IMG/VR virus record: IMGVR_UViG_2718218131_000011
Location: 20,026 to 84,025 of that record
Length of the DNA: 64,000 nt
Reading direction: 5' to 3' (one strand)
From: a virus
Lineage: Duplodnaviria; Heunggongvirae; Uroviricota; Caudoviricetes
Both the position numbers and the translations under genes were made by a program. Position 1 is the stretch's first letter. Each line of letters starts with the position of its first letter. A model generated the notes under the pieces. That model was not told where the DNA came from. It saw only the letters and a list, made by a program, of their open reading frames with translations, and made no database searches. Below, in pieces: positions 18,469-28,699 of the stretch.

Positions 18469-18824
18469 AGCACCACGTCCTGTGTGATAGTTATATCCCT
18501 GATACGAATGGATATTTTCAACTTATCAAAAGCATCTCCCTCGGCTACTGACAAGCCAGAAATCGGTATGTCAGATAAATCTACCGTCAGTTTTTGCAAC
18601 AGCATTGCCTCAACCGCAATTTGAACATGCGACAAGTTGGTCGGTTCGTGTTTAAACTGCGGTAAAACATTGCCCCATGACGGATCTCCGTATACCTCAC
18701 CCTGATAAGTGTTTAGCCACTCATATAAACGAGCGCCCCAGGCCTCCTCCTGGGACTCATACGTTTTTACGCCGGATAACTCCAGCGTCAGCAAAGGATC
18801 AATTTCGTTATTGTTGGCCATCAA
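18465..18824 (-). CDS. small baseplate/tail protein (gp25/W-like size)
   Basis: 119-aa ORF, 4-nt overlaps with flanking genes. Confidence 0.5.
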   Translation of the reverse strand: MMANNNEIDPLLTLELSGVKTYESQEEAWGARLYEWLNTYQGEVYGDPSWGNVLPQFKHEPTNLSHVQIAVEAMLLQKLTVDLSDIPISGLSVAEGDAFDKLKISIRIRDITITQDVVL

Positions 18825-21800
18825 TCAACTCTCGCGTAGTCATTCATCAACGGATCATCAATTGACAGTGGTACCGTGCGCATAACGCCCGGCTGAGGCG
18901 TGCTGACCTTTACGACAGTTCCCTGGCCTTTCGCCGAGTCTTTGGTGTGCTCTTCAATCCTGGCAAGTAATGAGGTCATCTGCGCAAACAGCCGCTTCGT
19001 TTCACCATCAAGTGAAACGGTATTATCAGCCAACTGCATTGTCGGCTTGGCACCGGAACCACCAAGGTCACTAATAACCTGTCCGTCTATCTGCATACGA
19101 CCGGTTGGTTGCTGCAAATCGTTGGCGGCAGTCGTCACCTGGGACGTGGAGGCTGGTTCAGGCGCATTATTTTTCCGCATCCCCGGCGAGTTGCGGAGTT
19201 TATCGAATAGTCCATCAATCCCCATTTGTGCGCCGAGTTGGTCAAAGTAACTTGAGTTGCTGGTCACCGGACGCGCCTCTTCAACTGGCATCGGAGTATC
19301 AACATACACATTGCCAGCTGCTGTTGCGGTCCCCTTCCCTCGTGCACGTTCTTCGAGCGTTCCCTGAACGACTTCCCGACGCATACCCCGGCCATTCATG
19401 AATTTGTTGACCAGATCGTTAACGCCAACAGCATTGCCGATTTTGTCTACCAGACCGCCTTTCTCAAACGGGCTATCACCAGGGGTAAACGCCAGGCCAG
19501 TAGACTGATCGATAACAGCGTTATCAGGCAGTGGTCCCCTCACTCCATATTGCGCCCCACCCTGTGCTCCTGCTCCAGGTGTATAGATTTCACCACCTAA
19601 ATAGCGAGCACGATGAGTATTGACCTTGATCGCGTACTCACGGTTTTCTTTCGATAAGTCACCTGTGCCTTTTTTCCACTTATTGATAGTGCCAAACCCA
19701 GCGTTATATGCAGTGATGGCCTCGTTTAAGTCTCCATTGGCTTGCTTCAGATACTTGCTCATGAGAAGAGCCGCAGCTTCTGCCGATTTCACAGGATCAA
19801 ACGATTCACCTTCAGCTAAGCCAGTCTCTTCACGAGCAATCCCCGTGAACTGAAACATTCCCAGAGCACCGGTTTGGGATTTTGCATACGGATTACCACC
19901 AGATTCAGTTGCAGCAATCGCGTAAAGAGTGCCTTCTGGAAGACCATATTTATTCTCTAGTTCAGCAAAATACGGAGCCAACTTATCGAGATTTGCCTTA
20001 CCTTCAGATCCAAGACTTCCGACTTTTACATCCAAGCGGCCATTGTTGTAGGTATCCGCAGCTTTCTGAATGTCATTCCTGGTGCCAGTGGTATTAAGCG
20101 ACGATGATGACGAGCTATTTTGACCAATAGCTTTATCAATTTTCTGCAACGCGCTATTGCCCGTTTCTGCGGCATTTGCATTGATAATCTGATTCGCAGT
20201 TTCTTTAACTGTTTTATTGCTATCTTTCGCCGTGTCCAGTGCCGCATTTATCACGCGGGTAACAATATTAGTCTGTTTGGCATCGGATTCAGTTTTAGAA
20301 TCAGATGTCTCCTGGTGGCTATTAACCGGAGCTTTTAACTCTGGAGCGATTTCTTTCGCATTAGCCTCGCTATTAACCGGAGCTTTTAACTCTGGAGCGA
20401 TTTCTTTCGCATTAGCCTCGCCGATCGGATTGGGTATTTTTGATACAATCATTGCCGCAGGGGTATTTTTAACGGCATCAACCGCTGCATCTAATGCTTT
20501 ACCAGGTAAATTTTTAACCCCATCCCAAATATTACCAGCCGCCTCTTTAATGTGTTTCCCTGGGTTCTTAATGAAATCAATTGCACTATCAATTGCATCA
20601 CTGAAAACCTGTTTCAGGTTATCAACAGTAAAGAAGTCTTTGATGGCATCCAGCTTTTCAAGCAGCTTATTAGATGTATCGCTAAACCATGCTGAAACAG
20701 CATCACCAATCTTTGCTGTGTAATCTTCGAACTTGGTAGAAATGGTGTCGCCAAGGTTAGAAATATATGTTTCTAAGTTGGTAATCCCACTATCAATGGC
20801 CTGGGCAATACTTTCCGTCGAAAATGATTGCAACATATTGCCGATATCCTCAAATCCAAGTGATTTGAGAACCTCACCAATGGCGCTGCTAATACCAGAT
20901 ACCAGTCCCCCCATATCAAGAACATTGGCTAACGTATAAGCGGCTTTTTGCTGGAATGATGGATCTTGTCCTGATTTAAGCCCAAACGCTCGACGTTGCG
21001 CTTCTGTATCATTCCAACCGGTTACCGCATCATAAATACCTCCAGCCACTGTGCCGACTAAGGGAATTGCGCGTAACGCCCCTTTACCAACTGCCTTTAA
21101 TCCAAGTTTACCTGCTGCCCGGGCAGCCAAATCTCCACCTTCATGGGCGATAGTCTTCTTGCCACCACCGCGTAGCATTCCTACAAGTTTCTTTGCCCCC
21201 AGAGCGCCAAAAGCGAGTGCTCCAGCTTTTTTCAGCATGCCACGCCCCATTAACAACGACGCGACGCCACCGGCCCCCTTCCCTAACAGGCTAAATAGTT
21301 TGGACAGCAAGCCGCCCTTCTTTTTCCCGGTGTTTTTGGCTATCTGATCAAGGGCGCTGAGAATCTTGTCATTGCCCTCTTTAATTTCGCTGGTCTGCTC
21401 CTGAAGTTCCTGAACTGTCCGTTTTTGGGTGTTAACCTGAACGACATCGGCACTATTTTGCGATTTACGCCTAAAAAAACCTTTTCTACGGCTGTTATCG
21501 TCATTGCCACAAATCACATCGGCAATAGACTTTCTGGCACCATTAAGCGATCCACCAACTTCTTTTGATATCCCGCCAAGCTCCTTCCCTGCTGCCCACA
21601 ATGGACCAGCAACGGCATAACCTAACGCATCAACGGCACGAGTCTCTGAAGGGTTACCTATGCCTTCAGCTACTTTTGACAGTTTTTTTAATAAACCTGA
21701 TTCAGCATTTAGACGCTCATCATCCTCTTTGCGCCTGGCCTTTTCAGCACGTTCAGCACGGGCATCTTCCGCTGCGGCCTTACTCCCTGACTTTCCAATA

Positions 21801-22561
21801 AAACGACCACGCGCATCGCGTTGGTTTTGGCTTTTTTGCGCACCGCCTTTTTGATCGAACATTTCGCGAGCGTGTTCGGCTGCTTCGGTCCGTTGTGCCT
21901 TTATATCCTCTGGTATAGCCTTCCTGCGTCGTTTTTTACCCTTTGGTGTAGTTGATTTGGCCTGCTGTTCCTGTTGAGCAATGCCCTCCTGAACTACACG
22001 AGAAACGTCCCCTAAATTAAGCCGTTTCATTGCGTCAACAATAGGGTCTACTGATGGCGCATTGGCCACAAAGTCTGGCCGGGAATTTTCGATTGTTCGA
22101 TTTAATGCCGACACACTGCGAGATACTGGGTCAACCGTTGCAACGCGTTCCCCTTTCAAATCACGAGCGAGTTTGACCGTTTCTAACCGCTGTGCTTTAA
22201 CATCCTCTGTTATTGCCTCTCTTCGTCTATTTGGGGGATTGTGCGCTGTTGGTGCAGCCTGCTGTGCACGGTTAGTGACTTTGTCCTCCCGTATACGAGA
22301 AACGTCCCCTAAATTAAGCCGTTTTATTGCGTCAACAATAGGGTCCACTGATGGCGCATTGGTCACAAAGTCAGGACGTGAATTTTCGATTGTGCGATTT
22401 AATGCCGACACACTGCGAGAGACAGGATCAACAGTTGCAACTCGTTCCCCTTTCAAATCTTCAACAGCTTCCCGAATACCTGCAAGCTCTTCCAGCTCTT
22501 TCGCGCTGGCGGTTTCAACTGTCCTTATAACATCGTCAATATTGGCGTTTTTTCTTTCCAT
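18821..22561 (-). CDS. sit: Sit-like tape-measure/injection protein with lytic transglycosylase (SLT) domain
   Basis: 1246 aa; Gly/Ala/Lys-rich central region; SLT motifs YGLPEGTLYAIAATESGGNPYAKSQTGALGMFQFTG...AYNAG in the C-terminal half. Confidence 0.7.
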   Translation of the reverse strand: MERKNANIDDVIRTVETASAKELEELAGIREAVEDLKGERVATVDPVSRSVSALNRTIENSRPDFVTNAPSVDPIVDAIKRLNLGDVSRIREDKVTNRAQQAAPTAHNPPNRRREAITEDVKAQRLETVKLARDLKGERVATVDPVSRSVSALNRTIENSRPDFVANAPSVDPIVDAMKRLNLGDVSRVVQEGIAQQEQQAKSTTPKGKKRRRKAIPEDIKAQRTEAAEHAREMFDQKGGAQKSQNQRDARGRFIGKSGSKAAAEDARAERAEKARRKEDDERLNAESGLLKKLSKVAEGIGNPSETRAVDALGYAVAGPLWAAGKELGGISKEVGGSLNGARKSIADVICGNDDNSRRKGFFRRKSQNSADVVQVNTQKRTVQELQEQTSEIKEGNDKILSALDQIAKNTGKKKGGLLSKLFSLLGKGAGGVASLLMGRGMLKKAGALAFGALGAKKLVGMLRGGGKKTIAHEGGDLAARAAGKLGLKAVGKGALRAIPLVGTVAGGIYDAVTGWNDTEAQRRAFGLKSGQDPSFQQKAAYTLANVLDMGGLVSGISSAIGEVLKSLGFEDIGNMLQSFSTESIAQAIDSGITNLETYISNLGDTISTKFEDYTAKIGDAVSAWFSDTSNKLLEKLDAIKDFFTVDNLKQVFSDAIDSAIDFIKNPGKHIKEAAGNIWDGVKNLPGKALDAAVDAVKNTPAAMIVSKIPNPIGEANAKEIAPELKAPVNSEANAKEIAPELKAPVNSHQETSDSKTESDAKQTNIVTRVINAALDTAKDSNKTVKETANQIINANAAETGNSALQKIDKAIGQNSSSSSSLNTTGTRNDIQKAADTYNNGRLDVKVGSLGSEGKANLDKLAPYFAELENKYGLPEGTLYAIAATESGGNPYAKSQTGALGMFQFTGIAREETGLAEGESFDPVKSAEAAALLMSKYLKQANGDLNEAITAYNAGFGTINKWKKGTGDLSKENREYAIKVNTHRARYLGGEIYTPGAGAQGGAQYGVRGPLPDNAVIDQSTGLAFTPGDSPFEKGGLVDKIGNAVGVNDLVNKFMNGRGMRREVVQGTLEERARGKGTATAAGNVYVDTPMPVEEARPVTSNSSYFDQLGAQMGIDGLFDKLRNSPGMRKNNAPEPASTSQVTTAANDLQQPTGRMQIDGQVISDLGGSGAKPTMQLADNTVSLDGETKRLFAQMTSLLARIEEHTKDSAKGQGTVVKVSTPQPGVMRTVPLSIDDPLMNDYARVD
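20318..20419. repeat. exact 51-bp tandem duplication inside sit
   Basis: gctattaaccggagcttttaactctggagcgatttctttcgcattagcctc occurs twice head-to-tail, encoding EANAKEIAPELKAPVNS twice. Confidence 0.9.
21853..22471. repeat. ~300-bp tandem duplication at the 5' end of sit
   Basis: Protein segment KGERVATVDPVSRSVSALNRTIENSRPDFV.NAPSVDPIVDA.KRLNLGDVSR plus RRR.AI.ED.KAQR repeated ~100 aa apart; corresponding DNA copies near-identical (boundaries approximate). Confidence 0.6.
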
Positions 22562-24160: not shown

Positions 24161-24751
<591 letters not shown>

Positions 24752-24807
24752 TTAACAGATTCTACGAGTTGTCATTTGTGACAGTATGCTCGCAATCGTA
24801 GCGATTA

Positions 24808-25347
24808 CTACCACCAACTGCTAGCTTTCTTCTCTCTAGCTTTTCCTTCGCTTTGCAGTAAATCTTTACTTCCTGTAGAAATATTTCTATTTGCATCAGC
24901 CTCAGACTGAATTACATCTGTCTTAGCTGCTCTCTCCTTCAACTCCTGCTCTATAAAATCGTTTTCTCGCTGGACACGAGCCGCTTTTGCTTGCAGTTCG
25001 AGTTTCATGCTTTCGAGTTGCAGCTTGCGAAGCTCATCCTCATAAGCTTGATCTCGCTTCTTGTCATTTGCTAGCTCGGCTTCTCGTTTCGCTCTACGTT
25101 CATTTTCTGCAGCAACACGCTGTTTTTCGCGTGCAGCAGCGGCAGATGCTGCTTTTTCTCTTCTAATACGTTCAGCTTGTGCTTGTTGGCGAATAAGTTC
25201 TTTTCTGGCATCCTCAGCTTGCTGCTCTTTAGCTCGCCCTTCATTTTCCGCTTGAGCAATAGCAGCAATTTGACTTTGCAACGAGTTAGCCAAGGCAGTG
25301 CCTACACTAAACGTAGAAAAGATTAGAAATAAAATAATTTTATTCAT
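24808..25347 (-). CDS. secreted coiled-coil protein (TolA-like Ala/Glu/Arg/Lys-rich), candidate superinfection-exclusion factor
   Basis: 179 aa; signal peptide MNKIILFLIFSTFSVGTALA; long charged helical region. Confidence 0.55.
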   Translation of the reverse strand: MNKIILFLIFSTFSVGTALANSLQSQIAAIAQAENEGRAKEQQAEDARKELIRQQAQAERIRREKAASAAAAREKQRVAAENERRAKREAELANDKKRDQAYEDELRKLQLESMKLELQAKAARVQRENDFIEQELKERAAKTDVIQSEADANRNISTGSKDLLQSEGKAREKKASSWW

Positions 25348-25350
25348 AAA

Positions 25351-25863
25351 TTATTTCTTTTCTGGACAAGTAGCATTTGGCTGAATTCGAGTTTCATTAT
25401 CTTTAGTTGAAATAAGCACAGCAAGCCCCGTTGTAAACTGGCATGCTTTACCAACTTGAGTTGAAGTGAACACCTTAGTTCCTTCTTTATAAGTCAGTGA
25501 AACACCTTCAACAATTGTTTTATCACTAACCAAAGAACCAGCCGCTGCACCAAGAGCCGCACCACCAGTACCGCCAGCTACAGCACCCAGTGTCGATGTG
25601 CCTTTAACATTATAACCGGCAACGCCCCCAGCAACAGCTCCCAGTACCGCACCAAATGTCTGTGCCGCTTCTTTATTAGCTTTATTATCAACTTTCACTT
25701 TAGCTGGAAGCACAGAGATAATATTGACTGTCTTTGTTTCCTGCTTCGAATTCAATTGAGCGGTATCATAAACATCGGCAGCATAATCAGCACCGCTAGA
25801 TTGACACCCAGAAAGAAGAATTGCAGATACAACAAGAGCGCATAAAGTATACTTTTTAGACAT
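25351..25863 (-). CDS. outer-membrane lipoprotein with glycine-zipper motif
   Basis: Lipobox LLSGC; GAVLGAVAGGVAGYN...GAVAGGTGGAALGAAAG glycine zipper; start taken at MSKKYT rather than the ORF-track start at 25872. Confidence 0.55.
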   Translation of the reverse strand: MSKKYTLCALVVSAILLSGCQSSGADYAADVYDTAQLNSKQETKTVNIISVLPAKVKVDNKANKEAAQTFGAVLGAVAGGVAGYNVKGTSTLGAVAGGTGGAALGAAAGSLVSDKTIVEGVSLTYKEGTKVFTSTQVGKACQFTTGLAVLISTKDNETRIQPNATCPEKK

Positions 25864-26152
25864 AAGAATCATCCCAGAAAAACAAAAACCGGCGAGAAGT
25901 TACCACGAGAACGGAAAGTAAACAAGAATACTCCCATTGACTTATATCAATTAATCAACTTTTTATAAGCTATCCCTAACTTATTGTGTATAGCTGAAAA
26001 GTCAGAGACAAGTTCACCATCTGCATTATTTCTTAAGGTAATAGTTTATTGCTAACTTAATTTATGTATCGACTATTGATATCCATCTTAAAGTTACAAT
26101 ATCCCTCTGCATTATTTTTCATCACAAATAATATATCTATTGCACGACACTC

Positions 26153-26170
26153 ATCTGCTCTAATAAATTT
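26153..26170 (+). promoter_or_regulatory. C1 repressor operator-like site upstream of the immI region (Op51-like)
   Basis: ATCTGCTCTAATAAATTT versus consensus ATTGCTCTAATAAATTT. Confidence 0.5.
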
Positions 26171-26349
26171 GTATTTTTAAGTCGCGAATGCTATCTTTTC
26201 GCATCATATTGACCTTTTAATCGTTCAGGCTTATAGTTCCGCCGTCGTAGCAAATTCTGCGACCGGGTTTAGCAGCCTGAATACTTACGCGGACAACCGC
26301 AGATTTCCGATATTGCGGTATTTTTGTGTCCGTAAACCACGTTACGCCC

Positions 26350-26440
26350 GAATTATGGTGGGGCGTGATGGGGAGGCTTCGGCCTGCTGGTTTCGTAAGT
26401 GCCAGTCTGCTAACCCCGTCACGTCCTGCCACCTGTTTAG
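26350..26440 (+). ncRNA. c4: probable c4-like antisense immunity RNA region (boundaries approximate)
   Basis: Structured segment between the operator and icd-ant; CTGCTAA in 26403-26419 is complementary to TTAGCAG at 26434-26442 near the icd leader; placement by P1 synteny. Confidence 0.3.
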
Positions 26441-26704: not shown

Positions 26705-27735
26705 AAAAACCTCTCGTCACCCGTAATGAAATAGCCGAAGCGATCGCCCTGCATACAACCTGTATGCCGACACGGGAGATCCCCGGCGCAATTGCCAACT
26801 ATTTCATCATAACCAGACGTTTTTATACCCGAACAGATAAGGCTGTGATCAACAAGCTACTGATAGCCGAGATCAGGGATTATTTGATTGAACAAGGACG
26901 TCTACGTTACGCAACAGTGGCAGCAGAAATGAGAAAGGAGGCACACAGAGTGACCGGTAAAAATTTGAATATTGAAAAACCAGCACCTGTTACGTCAGCT
27001 ACGCCAACACCAGCCGTGAATGTCATCCCCAACATCGGAGACACAATCGACAGCCAAACATTGTTGAAGATGGTCAATGAGGCACGGAAATTATGTAGCG
27101 AAAAACCAGTTCGCAATAATGATTTCATTGCCAGAGTTAAGGATGAACTTGAAGGAGAAACCTACGAAATTTTCGTAGGTCAAAAAAACGGCGCAGAAAT
27201 AGATATTATAACAATGACCTACAAACAAGCCCTGCGAGTTGCCGCGCGCGAATCAAAAGCTGTCCGCCGTTCGCTGATCGACAAACTGGAAGAATTACAG
27301 CAGGCAAACTCCCCTACCCCACCGATCCCCCAAACATTACCAGAAGCCCTACGCCTGGCTGCCGAGTTGGCAGAACAGAAATTGCAGCTGGAACAACAGC
27401 TGGTGGCCGCAGCCCCTAAAGTCGATTTTGCCGACCGGGTATCAGTGGCTAATGGAATCCTGATCGGGAACTTTGCAAAGGTCGTTGGACTTAAGCAAAA
27501 CGCCCTTTTCTCATGGTTGCGCCAGAACGGCATTCTCATGGCTTTTGGTGCGCGCAAAAACGTACCGCACCAACAGTACATCAACGCCGGGTATTTCACG
27601 GTGAAAGAAGTGGTGTTGGATGATGAAAATGGCTACCAGATACGGCTGACGCCCCAATTAACGGGTAAAGGCCAGCAGTGGTTAACTCGCAAGCTACTTG
27701 ATGCTGGTTTGTTAAAACCAGTAGCAATAGGTTAA
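26701..27735 (+). CDS. ant1: antirepressor Ant (KilAC/ANT C-terminal domain)
   Basis: 344 aa; C-terminal FAKVVGLKQNALFSWLRQNGILMAFGARKNVPHQQYINAGYFTVKE...GKGQQWLTRKLLDAGLL, paralogous to the KilA C-terminus. Confidence 0.7.
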   Translation: MKKPLVTRNEIAEAIALHTTCMPTREIPGAIANYFIITRRFYTRTDKAVINKLLIAEIRDYLIEQGRLRYATVAAEMRKEAHRVTGKNLNIEKPAPVTSATPTPAVNVIPNIGDTIDSQTLLKMVNEARKLCSEKPVRNNDFIARVKDELEGETYEIFVGQKNGAEIDIITMTYKQALRVAARESKAVRRSLIDKLEELQQANSPTPPIPQTLPEALRLAAELAEQKLQLEQQLVAAAPKVDFADRVSVANGILIGNFAKVVGLKQNALFSWLRQNGILMAFGARKNVPHQQYINAGYFTVKEVVLDDENGYQIRLTPQLTGKGQQWLTRKLLDAGLLKPVAIG

Positions 27736-27898: not shown

Positions 27899-28699
27899 AT
27901 GCAACAAACATTCAATGCGGATATGAATATATCAAACCTTCATCAAAATGTCGATCCTTCAACCACCCTGCCTGTTATTTGTGGTGTTGAAATTACGACC
28001 GACCGCGCTGGCCGTTACAACCTTAATGCTCTACACAGAGCGAGCGGACTCGGTGCCCATAAAGCGCCAGCTCAATGGCTAAGAACGCTGTCAGCCAAAC
28101 AGCTCATCGAAGAGCTTGAAAAAGAAACTATGCAGAATTGCATAGTTTCGTTCGAAGGCCGTGGCGGCGGCACTTTTGCCCATGAATTGCTCGCAGTGGA
28201 GTACGCTGGTTGGATTTCTCCCGCGTTTCGGCTGAAGGTAAACCAGACATTTATCGACTATCGAGCTGGAAGATTACAACCTGCTATTCCGAAGAGCCTC
28301 CCAGAAGCTCTCCGTTTGGCTGCTGACCTGGCAGAGCAAAAGCAACGGCTGGAGCAAAAAATGCTGATGGATGCACCTAAAGTCGAATTCGCCGAACGCG
28401 TTGCTACCGCCAGCGGGGTTCTAATCGGCAACTATGCCAAAGTGCTCGGCCTGGGCCAAAACTATCTCTTCACCTGGTTGCGTGATAACGGAATTCTGAT
28501 CGCAACCGGTGAACGCAGAAACGTCCCCAAACAAGAATACATATCCCGTGGGTATTTCACCCTTAAAGAAACCGTGATCGATACAAGCAATGGAAGCAGG
28601 ATTTCTTTCACGACTCGTATAACCGGCAAAGGTCAGCAGTGGCTGATGAAGCGATTGCTTGATGCTGGTGTGCTGGTACCTGTCGCGGCAACGCGCTAA
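27899..28699 (+). CDS. kilA: KilA (KilA-N domain plus antirepressor-like C-terminal domain)
   Basis: 266 aa (P1 KilA size); N-terminal TDRAGRYNLNALHRASG...AHELLAVEYAGWISPAFRLKV; C-terminal domain paralogous to Ant. Confidence 0.75.
   Translation: MQQTFNADMNISNLHQNVDPSTTLPVICGVEITTDRAGRYNLNALHRASGLGAHKAPAQWLRTLSAKQLIEELEKETMQNCIVSFEGRGGGTFAHELLAVEYAGWISPAFRLKVNQTFIDYRAGRLQPAIPKSLPEALRLAADLAEQKQRLEQKMLMDAPKVEFAERVATASGVLIGNYAKVLGLGQNYLFTWLRDNGILIATGERRNVPKQEYISRGYFTLKETVIDTSNGSRISFTTRITGKGQQWLMKRLLDAGVLVPVAATR

What the first reader, a model, noticed from the sequence alone, without database searches (positions are those of the whole stretch)
24808..25872. Secreted coiled-coil protein plus glycine-zipper lipoprotein between tail genes and immI
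Two envelope-targeted proteins (Sec signal peptide with TolA-like charged helix; lipoprotein with GxxxG zipper) sit where P1 carries sim superimmunity genes, and are followed by a perfect 12-bp inverted repeat (24734-24768). The pair is a candidate superinfection-exclusion module acting in the periplasm.
Basis: inference. Interest (0 to 1): 0.4.

Follow-up and report, generated by a model that had tools for sequence, protein, structure and literature searches.

The report
Phage copy of host yfgH–yfgI
The two genes are a P7-type phage-plasmid's own diverged copy of the bacterial outer-membrane-stabilising operon yfgH–yfgI, sitting in the slot where phage P1 keeps its sim exclusion genes; whether this copy excludes other phages or simply toughens the host envelope has not been tested.

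Summary
Two minus-strand ORFs lie at 24808-25347 and 25351-25872, between pmgC and the c4/icd/ant immunity region of a P7/SJ46-type P1-family phage-plasmid. One has a Sec-type signal peptide and a charged helix. The other has a lipobox Cys23 and seven GxxxG motifs. The perfect 12-bp inverted repeat is also real.

They are P7 Upf50.5 and Upf50.0 (100% aa). They are full-length homologues of E. coli K-12 YfgH (67-68% identity) and YfgI/DUF5384 (47%). They show no similarity to SimA/B/C. The YfgH family is homologous to SlyB (profile E 1.7e-9; Foldseek E 1.6e-6). A 2025 preprint reports YfgH as an outer-membrane stabiliser. yfgH-yfgI is a near-invariant gene pair (78 of 79 species loci).

The genes form a 1.37-kb low-GC cassette (24780/85-26155). 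It is one of three main alleles of the known hypervariable sim slot in PLSDB: 165 plasmids carry this one, 137 carry sim, and 81 carry a third type. Every protein encoded by these alleles starts with a signal-peptide-like sequence.

The inverted repeat belongs to the conserved backbone, not the cassette. It overlaps the LPsit -10 and the pmgC ribosome-binding site.

Best reading: a prophage accessory module that remodels or stabilises the outer membrane. Superinfection exclusion remains possible but has no direct support. Interest is modest.

The parts
25351..25872 (-). ORF B = P7 Upf50.5: YfgH-like, SlyB-family outer-membrane lipoprotein (173 aa). Lipobox Cys23, two-helix glycine zipper at about residues 64-113, beta-rich C-terminal part with conserved Cys144 and Cys169.
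   Evidence: 67-68% identical to E. coli YfgH over the full length (K-12 b2505). All 29 family-invariant residues are present. The family profile hits SlyB 7OJF at E 1.7e-9. The Foldseek top hit is 7ojf_A at E 1.6e-6, although the model pLDDT is only 57. The Pfam TraT hit is below threshold.
24808..25347 (-). ORF A = P7 Upf50.0: YfgI-like DUF5384 protein (179 aa). 20-aa signal peptide, then about 159 aa predicted as one long charged helix (about 24 nm if fully extended). The C-terminal half is conserved.
   Evidence: PF17358 at E 3e-43, 147.8 bits against a cutoff of 25. 47% identical to K-12 YfgI over 179 aa. AF2 predicts a helix over residues 3-178 with pLDDT 87. Conserved motifs are shown.
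24780..26155 (-). The exchangeable cassette as a whole: the two genes plus their own 283-bp upstream region. It replaces simCBA of P1.
   Evidence: Homology to P1 stops at 24779 and resumes at 26156; to Ro157c2YLVW it stops at 24784 and resumes at 26156. GC is 40.5% against 47.4% for the window. 165 PLSDB plasmids carry it, all at 99% identity or more.
25873..26153 (-). Cassette-specific AT-rich (32% GC) upstream region, presumed to hold the promoter of ORF B and ORF A. The best sigma-70-like match is TAGATA-17-AATAAT at 26139-26111. There is no internal C1 operator.
   Evidence: the promoter match is 9/12 and not above chance; the only nearby operator is at 26154-26170. No similarity to the region upstream of chromosomal yfgH or of the closest island copy.
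24734..24768 (-). Perfect 12-bp inverted repeat in the conserved backbone. On the minus strand, the 5' arm contains the -10 (TAGAAT, 24764-24759) of late promoter LPsit. The 3' arm contains three of the four bases of the pmgC Shine-Dalgarno GAGG (24736-24733; ATG at 24727).
   Evidence: LPsit coordinates are taken from the P7 and P1 annotations. The repeat is conserved in P1, P7 and Ro157 with 11-bp arms and a different loop. RNA read through from upstream folds at -20.8 kcal/mol, whereas a leader starting in the loop folds at -0.9. It was not called as an intrinsic terminator because no U tract follows.
26154..26170 (+). C1 operator Oc4, marking the right-hand edge of the cassette. The divergent c4-icd-ant immunity region begins here.
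   Evidence: Operator consensus match with 2 mismatches. P7 and P1 annotation. C4 RNA lies at 26351-26436 and a1b1 at 26231-26283.
24161..24727 (-). pmgC (tubA in P7), the first gene of the late tail operon downstream of the cassette. Context only, not part of the module.

Best explanation
This is an accessory ('moron') cassette of a P7-type P1-family phage-plasmid, made of diverged copies of the bacterial envelope operon yfgH-yfgI. It is inserted in the hypervariable slot that holds simCBA in P1.

Shown: ORF B is a YfgH-family, SlyB-homologous lipoprotein. ORF A is its invariable operon partner YfgI/DUF5384. The cassette is one of three common alleles of the slot and lies on the prophage-side of late promoter LPsit, with its own upstream region.

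Inferred from the family: ORF B is lipidated at Cys23 and sorted by Lol to the outer membrane, since residue +2 is not Asp. It would insert its two-helix glycine zipper into the membrane and, like SlyB, assemble into rings that hold outer-membrane proteins and lipids together under stress. ORF A would be exported by Sec, form a long (about 24 nm) helical rod in the periplasm and act together with ORF B.

Inferred from anatomy: the pair is transcribed from its own AT-rich upstream region, which contains no internal C1 operator, so it would be expressed in the lysogen. A conserved hairpin hides the pmgC ribosome-binding site in read-through RNA. This would keep cassette transcription from producing tail proteins, while late transcripts that start inside the hairpin loop are translated freely.

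Net effect proposed: the prophage remodels or stabilises the host outer membrane, for example raising tolerance to detergent, chelator or envelope-biogenesis stress. This would be a second copy in E. coli and the only copy in hosts such as S. Typhimurium that lack yfgHI. Any block to incoming phages would be a by-product or an added use of that remodelling.
For: Identity: 67-68% to K-12 YfgH and 47% to K-12 YfgI, both full length. PF17358 at E 3e-43. All family-invariant residues are kept.

SlyB homology: profile E 1.7e-9 over residues 9-163; Foldseek top hit 7ojf_A at E 1.6e-6, TM 0.50/0.59.

Function of YfgH: it fractionates with the outer membrane; its deletion gives SDS/EDTA sensitivity and loss of outer-membrane proteins; overexpression rescues BamA/LptD depletion; it co-purifies with outer-membrane proteins (preprint 10.64898/2025.12.22.696046). 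It shows aggravating genetic interaction with lptD (PMC3219608).

Pairing: in 78 of 79 species-level loci that encode DUF5384, a yfgH-like gene sits directly upstream on the same strand. The gap here is 3 nt.

Cassette nature: the same breakpoints are shared by three alleles; low GC; PLSDB counts of 165, 137 and 81. simABC is non-essential and hypervariable (PMC10695390; PMC9603915).

Selection on mobile elements: a diverged second allele (84%) occurs in another P1-like contig. A 63% pair occurs in a Salmonella ~102-kb element with tail fibre, endolysin and Rep genes. Pairs also lie next to P2-like tail modules at two E. coli chromosomal sites.

Hosts: 22 of the 167 plasmid hits are from Salmonella. 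yfgHI orthologues are absent from S. Typhimurium (PMC11619404).

Hairpin.
Against: No expression data exist. The promoter prediction is weak and no better than chance.

The AF2 monomer of ORF B is low confidence (pLDDT 57), so ring formation is inferred from SlyB and from the preprint's AF3 models, which are themselves unvalidated.

The function of YfgI is essentially unknown. The only reported phenotype is nalidixic-acid sensitivity of the deletion (PMC3536626), which does not obviously fit an envelope role.

E. coli hosts already have yfgHI, so simple complementation does not explain carriage there.

Position argues for an exclusion role rather than a fitness role. The slot holds a proven exclusion system in P1. 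Every protein of the three alleles begins with a signal-peptide-like sequence. In one relative the slot also holds a nuclease-domain gene.
Confidence: 0.55

Rival explanations
1. Superinfection-exclusion module. The phage-borne YfgH-like rings and the YfgI-like periplasmic rod would alter the outer membrane or periplasm so that incoming phages cannot adsorb productively or inject DNA. This would be functionally equivalent to Sim, or to TraT/Cor/Llp-type lipoproteins that mask outer-membrane receptors.
For: It is an exact positional replacement of simCBA. Every protein of the three slot alleles starts with a signal-peptide-like N-terminus, read by eye (SimA/B/C, both Ro157-type proteins, and this pair). 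The Ro157-type allele keeps the SimA N-terminus and contains a 47-aa segment 49% identical to the injection protein Sit (E 8e-9), which suggests interference with injection. A relative carries an extra DUF559 nuclease-domain gene in the slot. ORF B gives a weak TraT (surface-exclusion lipoprotein) Pfam hit, E 7e-5. YfgH co-purifies with OmpA/C/F and BamA, which include common phage receptors (preprint). From general knowledge, TraT is reported to protect against OmpA-specific phages.
Against: No sequence similarity to Sim. No hit to any PADLOC defence model. The TraT hit is below Pfam's threshold, the family profile does not find TraT in the PDB at E up to 10, and the structural match to TraT 9fsm is not significant (E 0.58). 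The nearest relatives are chromosomal housekeeping-type genes conserved across Gammaproteobacteria. None of the 28 papers mentioning yfgH or yfgI reports a phage phenotype. P1 adsorbs to LPS core rather than to an outer-membrane protein (general knowledge).
Confidence: 0.3
2. Recently captured host DNA with no selected function on the phage: passenger genes in a recombination hot spot.
For: All 167 PLSDB copies are 99% identical or more, which fits a single recent capture spread by descent and recombination. The slot tolerates any content, since sim is non-essential.
Against: Both ORFs are intact in 165 plasmids from E. coli, E. fergusonii, E. albertii and Salmonella, and all family-invariant residues are kept. 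The copy is only 68%/47% identical to the E. coli chromosomal genes and at most 79% (DNA) to the closest known copy, so it did not come recently from the current hosts' core operon. A second allele diverged to 84% exists in the same slot of another P1-like element, and unrelated phage-like elements carry the pair too.
Confidence: 0.07
3. A late or lysis-related or virion-associated role, for example a spanin-like lipoprotein pair or a tail accessory, as some GenBank records imply ('minor tail protein', 'tail tip protein').
For: The genes are adjacent to and co-oriented with the tail operon. One is an outer-membrane lipoprotein and the other a periplasmic helical protein, which superficially recalls o-/i-spanin pairs. 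There is a weak PHROG hit to an Rz-like spanin (E 0.038, signal-peptide region only).
Against: The genes lie upstream of late promoter LPsit, so that promoter does not transcribe them. The slot is replaced by unrelated genes in about 57% of the P1-like plasmids counted across the three alleles (218 of 383), which cannot happen to an essential morphogenetic or lysis function. ORF A has a cleavable signal peptide rather than the N-terminal membrane anchor of an i-spanin. Homologues are chromosomal operons in non-phage contexts.
Confidence: 0.04

Closest known systems
E. coli K-12 yfgH-yfgI operon (b2505-b2506; srgI-srgL in S. Typhi)
   Same: Same two genes in the same order, tightly spaced. Both are full-length homologues (67-68% and 47% identity). 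The lipobox, glycine zipper, conserved Cys pair and DUF5384 C-terminal motifs are all present.
   Different: Carried on a phage-plasmid rather than between pdeF/yfgG and guaA. Diverged well beyond within-species variation. The upstream region is different and unrelated, so regulation presumably differs (no yfgG; SdiA control not known). Low GC.
SlyB (PDB 7OJF/7OJG), a stress-induced outer-membrane lipoprotein that encircles outer-membrane proteins in lipid nanodomains
   Same: Homologous over the whole mature protein (profile E 1.7e-9), with the same order of beta-hairpin, two-helix glycine zipper and beta strands. It is the best structural match.
   Different: About 25% identity. The YfgH family has an extra conserved Cys pair and a dedicated partner gene (DUF5384), which the SlyB literature read here does not mention (slyB's own gene neighbourhood was not examined). 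The preprint reports different genetic suppressors (clsA versus mla) and no cross-complementation.
P1 SimA/SimB/SimC superimmunity (superinfection exclusion) genes
   Same: Identical genomic slot and orientation, and the products begin with signal-peptide-like sequences. Non-essential accessory genes next to immI.
   Different: No detectable sequence similarity. Three genes rather than two. Sim has an experimentally shown exclusion phenotype, and this pair has none reported.
TraT surface-exclusion / serum-resistance lipoprotein of F-like plasmids (PDB 9FSM decamer)
   Same: An outer-membrane lipoprotein encoded by a mobile element, with a glycine/alanine-rich membrane segment and an oligomeric ring. 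There is a weak Pfam TraT hit over residues 59-145.
   Different: The hit is below Pfam's gathering score. It is not recovered by the reverse profile search, and the structural match is not significant. TraT is longer (about 225-245 aa) and has no DUF5384 partner.
Cor (phi80/N15) and Llp (T5) receptor-masking lipoproteins
   Same: Small phage-encoded outer-membrane lipoproteins expressed to change the cell surface.
   Different: No real homology; the only PHROG Cor hit (E 0.022) covers the signal peptide. Those proteins bind FhuA specifically, and no target is known here.

Membership tests
YfgH family (SlyB-superfamily glycine-zipper outer-membrane lipoproteins) | Full-length sequence homology to E. 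coli YfgH | tested here: met
   67-68% identity over 167-171 aa, E 6e-72 / 9e-73. The K-12 gene identity was confirmed from the NC_000913 annotation.
YfgH family (SlyB-superfamily glycine-zipper outer-membrane lipoproteins) | Lipoprotein signal peptide with lipobox Cys, and no Asp at +2 (outer-membrane sorting rule) | tested here: met
   LLSG-C23-QS was read from the translation. Cys23 is invariant in 50 homologues. No dedicated predictor was available.
YfgH family (SlyB-superfamily glycine-zipper outer-membrane lipoproteins) | Two-helix GxxxG glycine zipper flanked by beta strands; homology to the solved SlyB structure | tested here: met
   Seven GxxxG motifs. AF2 secondary structure is E45-62, H64-88, H94-113, E118-163. 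Profile against 7OJF gives E 1.7e-9. Foldseek against 7ojf_A gives E 1.6e-6. The model confidence is low (pLDDT 57).
YfgH family (SlyB-superfamily glycine-zipper outer-membrane lipoproteins) | Outer-membrane localisation, ring oligomerisation and stabilisation of outer-membrane proteins and lipids | not testable with these tools
   Reported for E. coli YfgH only (preprint 10.64898/2025.12.22.696046). Oligomers there are AF3 models.
YfgI / DUF5384 (PF17358) | Pfam PF17358 match above the gathering score | tested here: met
   147.8 bits against a cutoff of 25, E 3e-43, covering profile positions 4-145 of 145. 47% identical to K-12 YfgI.
YfgI / DUF5384 (PF17358) | Encoded directly downstream of a yfgH-like lipoprotein gene | tested here: met
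   3-nt gap in the window. The arrangement holds in 78 of 79 species-level loci.
P1 Sim superimmunity proteins | Sequence homology to SimA, SimB or SimC | tested here: not met
   Best BLASTP E 0.13 over 30 aa.
P1 Sim superimmunity proteins | Exclusion of superinfecting P1 after adsorption | not testable with these tools
   Needs plating and DNA-entry assays.
TraT (PF05818) | Pfam TraT match at or above the gathering score, or similarity to the solved TraT structure | tested here: not met
   23.1 bits against a cutoff of 31. TraT was not found by the family profile in the PDB at E up to 10. Foldseek against 9fsm_A gives E 0.58, TM 0.22.
TolA | Homology to TolA domains | tested here: not met
   No TolA family among Pfam hits at E up to 1 and no PDB sequence hit at E up to 1. 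The resemblance is compositional (Ala/Glu/Lys/Arg-rich helix).
Known anti-phage defence systems (PADLOC-DB v2) | Match to any defence-protein model | tested here: not met
   No families at E up to 0.1 for either protein.
Rho-independent terminator (for the inverted repeat) | GC-rich stem followed by a U tract | tested here: not met
   The terminator scan did not report this site. The stem is followed by GUUUCAAUG, which is the pmgC start region.

The most novel reading that the evidence does not exclude
The phage-borne YfgH/YfgI pair could be a new kind of superinfection-exclusion or surface-remodelling device built from a SlyB-type nanodomain lipoprotein. Rings of the phage YfgH-like protein, tethered to or spaced by the ~24-nm YfgI-like periplasmic rod, would sequester outer-membrane proteins or LPS patches, or obstruct the Sit-mediated passage of DNA through the periplasm. 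The three sim-slot alleles would then be alternative solutions to the same task. A corollary is that chromosomal yfgHI itself might influence phage susceptibility.
Probability: 0.2. Interest if true: 0.65.

Novelty: new member of a known kind. Interest (0 to 1): 0.3.

Why it matters
If the reading is right, a widespread group of antibiotic-resistance-carrying phage-plasmids (P7/SJ46/RCS47 type, 165 records in PLSDB) gives its hosts an extra, differently regulated copy of an outer-membrane stabilising system. This could affect tolerance to detergents, bile, chelators and some antibiotics, mainly in farm-animal E. coli and Salmonella.

It also gives a natural three-allele experiment at a single locus (sim, yfgHI-like and the Ro157 type) for asking what the P1 'sim slot' is selected for.

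It provides a handle on YfgI/DUF5384, a protein whose function is essentially unknown and which is almost always encoded next to yfgH.

It corrects propagated annotation errors ('DNA methyltransferase', 'tail tip protein').

Tried and rejected
1. Homology to SimA/B/C: none.
2. TraT membership: the Pfam hit is below threshold, and the reverse profile and structure searches are negative.
3. Defence-system models (PADLOC): no hits.
4. Single-sequence search of the PDB: nothing significant for either protein. Only the family profile found SlyB.
5. The inverted repeat as terminator of the module: rejected. It has no U tract, it is conserved in P1, which has different cargo, and it overlaps the LPsit -10 and the pmgC SD.
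6. Sigma-70 promoter for the cassette: only 9/12 matches, no better than shuffled sequence.
7. Phage TL-2011b and most IMG/VR hits at 66-69% as independent phage carriers: rejected. These records carry host yfgG-yfgH-yfgI at the contig edge, which is prophage-boundary overshoot.
8. DNA similarity of the Salmonella (L012) and Enterobacter (L015) carrier contigs to known phages: none by megablast. For L012, PHROG hits show phage genes. L015 remains unclassified.
9. Donor of the cassette: the closest copy (E. coli island L013 and a metagenome contig) is only 79% identical, in the coding DNA only. No donor was found for the upstream region.
10. Literature: no paper mentions DUF5384 and none links yfgH or yfgI to phages. 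The P1 genome paper (PMC523184) is not held.
11. Coiled-coil test on ORF A: hydrophobic periodicity of 3.5 in residues 21-94 but 3.85 in the conserved half, so oligomeric state is left open.
Full report
**What is there**

The window is a P1-family phage-plasmid of the P7/SJ46/RCS47 type. The stretch 24600-26200 is 99.3-99.8% identical to P7, SJ46, RCS47, JL22 and phi456, and 100% identical to several E. coli plasmids.

The local minus-strand gene order is sit (18821-22561), pmgB, tub, pmgC (24161-24727), ORF A (24808-25347) and ORF B (25351-25872). The divergent immunity region follows on the plus strand:
- C1 operator at 26154-26170
- C4 RNA targets and C4 RNA at 26231-26436
- icd, ant, kilA and repL

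**Checking the observation**

ORF A (179 aa):
- It begins MNKIILFLIFSTFSVGTALA|NS.
- Its 159-aa mature part is 41% charged and 19% alanine.
- AlphaFold2 with a 52-sequence alignment predicts one uninterrupted helix (pLDDT 87).

ORF B (173 aa):
- It has the lipobox LSG-C23 with Gln at +2.
- It has seven overlapping GxxxG motifs between residues 74 and 112.

The 12-bp perfect inverted repeat at 24734-24745 / 24757-24768 is confirmed. As RNA it folds far better than shuffled sequence: -20.8 kcal/mol, z = -6.3.

In P1 the same interval holds simC, simB and simA.

Signal peptides were judged by eye, because no predictor was available. The P7 GenBank record annotates both.

**What the genes are**

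In P7 they are annotated Upf50.0 and Upf50.5, 'of unknown function'. ORF A matches Pfam DUF5384 at E 3e-43. ORF B gives only sub-threshold hits to TraT and glycine-zipper families.

Database homologues of the two proteins repeatedly come from the same contigs. In E. coli chromosomes the pair lies between pdeF/yfgG and guaA. The K-12 annotation names these genes yfgH (b2505, 'lipoprotein YfgH') and yfgI (b2506).

Direct comparison with the K-12 proteins gives:
- ORF B against YfgH: 67-68% identity over the full length.
- ORF A against YfgI: 47% identity over 179 aa.

All 29 invariant positions of a 50-member YfgH alignment are present in ORF B, including Cys23 and the Cys144/Cys169 pair. The conserved C-terminal motifs of DUF5384 are present in ORF A.

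Neither protein resembles SimA, SimB or SimC; the best E-value is 0.13. Neither hits any PADLOC defence model.

**Relation to SlyB and TraT**

- A profile of the YfgH alignment finds SlyB (PDB 7OJF/7OJG) at E 1.7e-9, aligned over residues 9-163.
- The AF2 monomer of ORF B is of low confidence (pLDDT 57). It nevertheless has the SlyB order of elements (beta hairpin, two helices, beta strands), and Foldseek returns SlyB as the only significant PDB hit (E 1.6e-6, TM 0.50/0.59).
- The solved TraT decamer (9FSM) appears only at E 0.58.
- The family profile does not find TraT at all.

TraT membership is therefore not met, although a very distant kinship cannot be excluded.

**What is known about the family**

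A December 2025 preprint (10.64898/2025.12.22.696046) reports the following for E. coli YfgH:
- It fractionates with the outer membrane.
- Its deletion sensitises cells to SDS/EDTA, increases permeability and causes loss of outer-membrane proteins.
- Overexpression rescues depletion of BamA or LptD.
- It co-purifies with OmpA/C/F and BamA.
- It is modelled, but not shown, to form SlyB-like rings.
- clsA mutations suppress the deletion phenotype.

An earlier genetic-interaction study linked yfgH to lptD and outer-membrane integrity (PMC3219608).

The only reported yfgI phenotype is nalidixic-acid sensitivity of the deletion (PMC3536626).

In S. Typhi the operon (srgIL) is SdiA-regulated, and S. 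Typhimurium lacks it (PMC11619404).

No paper in the library mentions DUF5384. None connects yfgH or yfgI with phages.

**The pair is one unit**

I scanned one genome per species for DUF5384. Of 80 loci, 79 also encode a YfgH-like protein; the exception is a 336-bp contig. In 78 of those 79 the yfgH-like gene lies directly upstream on the same strand. The species include Enterobacterales, Pseudomonas, Pasteurellaceae, Aeromonadales and Vibrionaceae. In the window the two ORFs are 3 nt apart.

**The cassette and its slot**

Pairwise alignment shows that homology to P1 ends at 24779 and resumes at 26156. Homology to phage Ro157c2YLVW, which carries a third unrelated pair of genes, ends at 24784 and resumes at the same 26156. 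The exchangeable unit is therefore 24780/85-26155, made of the two genes plus 283 bp of their own upstream DNA.

Its GC content is 40.5% (32% upstream), against 47.4% for the window.

Counts in PLSDB of plasmids carrying each allele at 80% coverage or more:

| Allele | Plasmids |
|---|---|
| yfgHI-like | 165 (every matching record, 167 in all, is at least 99% identical) |
| P1 sim | 137 |
| Ro157-type | 81 |

The literature already lists simABC as one of eight hypervariable regions of P1-like phage-plasmids (PMC9603915). CRISPRi shows that simA/B/C are dispensable for P1 lytic growth (PMC10695390).

Every protein encoded by the three alleles starts with a signal-peptide-like sequence, read by eye.

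**Origin and other carriers**

The phage copy is not a recent copy of the E. coli core operon: it shows 69% DNA identity in the coding parts only. The closest copy found is 79% identical at the DNA level and 86%/78% at the protein level. It lies in an E. coli genomic island with transposases. No source was found for the upstream region.

Other mobile contexts:
- A P1-like IMG/VR contig with an allele diverged to 84%, plus an extra gene.
- A ~102-kb Salmonella contig with tail-fibre, endolysin, exonuclease and Rep genes, carrying a 63% pair.
- Pairs abutting P2-like tail modules at two different E. coli chromosomal sites.

By contrast, phage TL-2011b and most IMG/VR hits at 66-69% simply include host yfgG-yfgH-yfgI at the end of an over-extended prophage call.

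**The inverted repeat**

It lies in the backbone shared by P1, P7 and Ro157c2YLVW, where the arms are 11 bp and the loops differ. It is not part of the cassette.

On the transcribed (minus) strand:
- The 5' arm contains TAGAAT, the annotated -10 of late promoter LPsit.
- The 3' arm contains three of the four bases of the GAGG Shine-Dalgarno sequence, five bases before the pmgC ATG.
- No U tract follows, and the terminator scan does not call it.

RNA that reads through from the cassette can form the -20.8 kcal/mol hairpin. A transcript starting about 7 nt after the -10, inside the loop, is unstructured at -0.9 kcal/mol. The P1 version folds equally well at -21.2 kcal/mol.

My inference, which is not shown, is that the hairpin insulates the late tail operon translationally from transcription of whatever cargo sits upstream.

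**How it most likely works**

Shown: the identity of the two genes, the SlyB homology, the obligatory pairing, the cassette boundaries and the allele frequencies.

Inferred from the family: ORF B is a Lol-sorted outer-membrane lipoprotein that inserts its glycine zipper and oligomerises around outer-membrane proteins and lipids. ORF A is a Sec-exported helical rod about 24 nm long (159 residues at 0.15 nm each) that works with it.

Inferred from anatomy: expression comes from the cassette's own upstream region in the lysogen. There is no C1 operator inside the cassette, and the promoter prediction is weak.

I therefore rate 'prophage-encoded outer-membrane stabilisation or remodelling module' as the best explanation (0.55). 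I rate 'superinfection exclusion as the selected function' as the main rival (0.30). The two are not mutually exclusive.

**Comparison with the known, and novelty**

This is a phage-borne member of the YfgH (SlyB-superfamily) and YfgI (DUF5384) families. It is not a Sim, TraT, TolA or spanin relative.

The genes have been in GenBank since the P7 record. That record already notes similarity to E. coli proteins, and the sim region is already known to be variable. What this analysis adds:
- The explicit assignment to yfgH-yfgI and SlyB.
- The exact cassette boundaries and allele counts.
- The near-universal pairing of the two genes.
- The reading of the inverted repeat.

The finding is correct and mildly interesting, but it is not a new kind of system.

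Noticed in passing
L009 3215-3862 (phage vB_EcoM-Ro157c2YLVW, same slot); compare window 18821-22561 (sit): The third allele of the sim slot encodes a 215-aa protein. Its first ~36 residues equal SimA (signal peptide included). Its residues 122-168 are 49% identical (E 8e-9) to residues 1043-1085 of the injection/tape-measure protein Sit. It may be a periplasmic mimic of part of Sit that interferes with injection.
   Followed up: partly
L033 7389-8648 (IMG/VR P1-like contig IMGVR_UViG_2744054872_000001): A P1-like element with a diverged yfgHI-like cassette (84% aa) carries an extra 419-aa gene between it and pmgC. The gene has an N-terminal hydrophobic segment, proline-rich repeats and a DUF559 / REase_MTES_1575 nuclease-like domain, with weak PADLOC hits (PDC-S37 at E 1e-5). 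It may be a defence gene in the same slot.
   Followed up: partly
window 25351-25872 and 24808-25347; RefSeq NC_050152, NC_031129, NC_042128; OR339795: Annotation errors have propagated. The lipoprotein is labelled 'DNA methyltransferase' in PHROG 1277 and in RefSeq P7, SJ46 and RCS47. The pair is labelled 'minor tail protein' and 'tail tip protein' in phi456. Nothing in the sequence supports these names.
   Followed up: yes
L016 (phage TL-2011b, JQ011317 41360-43105) and L034-L096 (IMG/VR): The 'phage' copies of the pair at 66-69% identity are host yfgG-yfgH-yfgI (plus a pdeF fragment) at the very end of ~40-kb prophage records. The prophage boundary has overshot at an integration site next to yfgI/guaA, so these are not phage cargo.
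   Followed up: yes
L010 6001-7071 and L097 9001-10071 (E. coli chromosomes): Diverged yfgHI-like pairs (71-73% identity) lie directly beside the tail-fibre end of P2-like tail gene clusters at two different chromosomal sites (tor region; aspS-yecD). In the genomes examined this is a second copy, separate from the core yfgHI operon, and it may be prophage or tailocin cargo.
   Followed up: partly
window 22001-22162 versus 22161-22320 region of sit; also 27340-27609 versus 28301-28570: There is an internal duplication in the 5' part of sit: a repeated ~160-bp unit, visible as the repeated peptide 'LKGERVATVDPVSRSVSALNRTIENSRPDF'. There is also a 67% identical ~270-bp segment shared by the 3' parts of ant and kilA, which encode related C-terminal domains.
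   Followed up: no
window 24770-24783: A short inverted repeat TGTCA-TTTG-TGACA overlaps the annotated -22 element of late promoter LPsit. The P1/P7 cassette breakpoint (24779/24780) falls inside it, so P1 has a different distal half-site.
   Followed up: no
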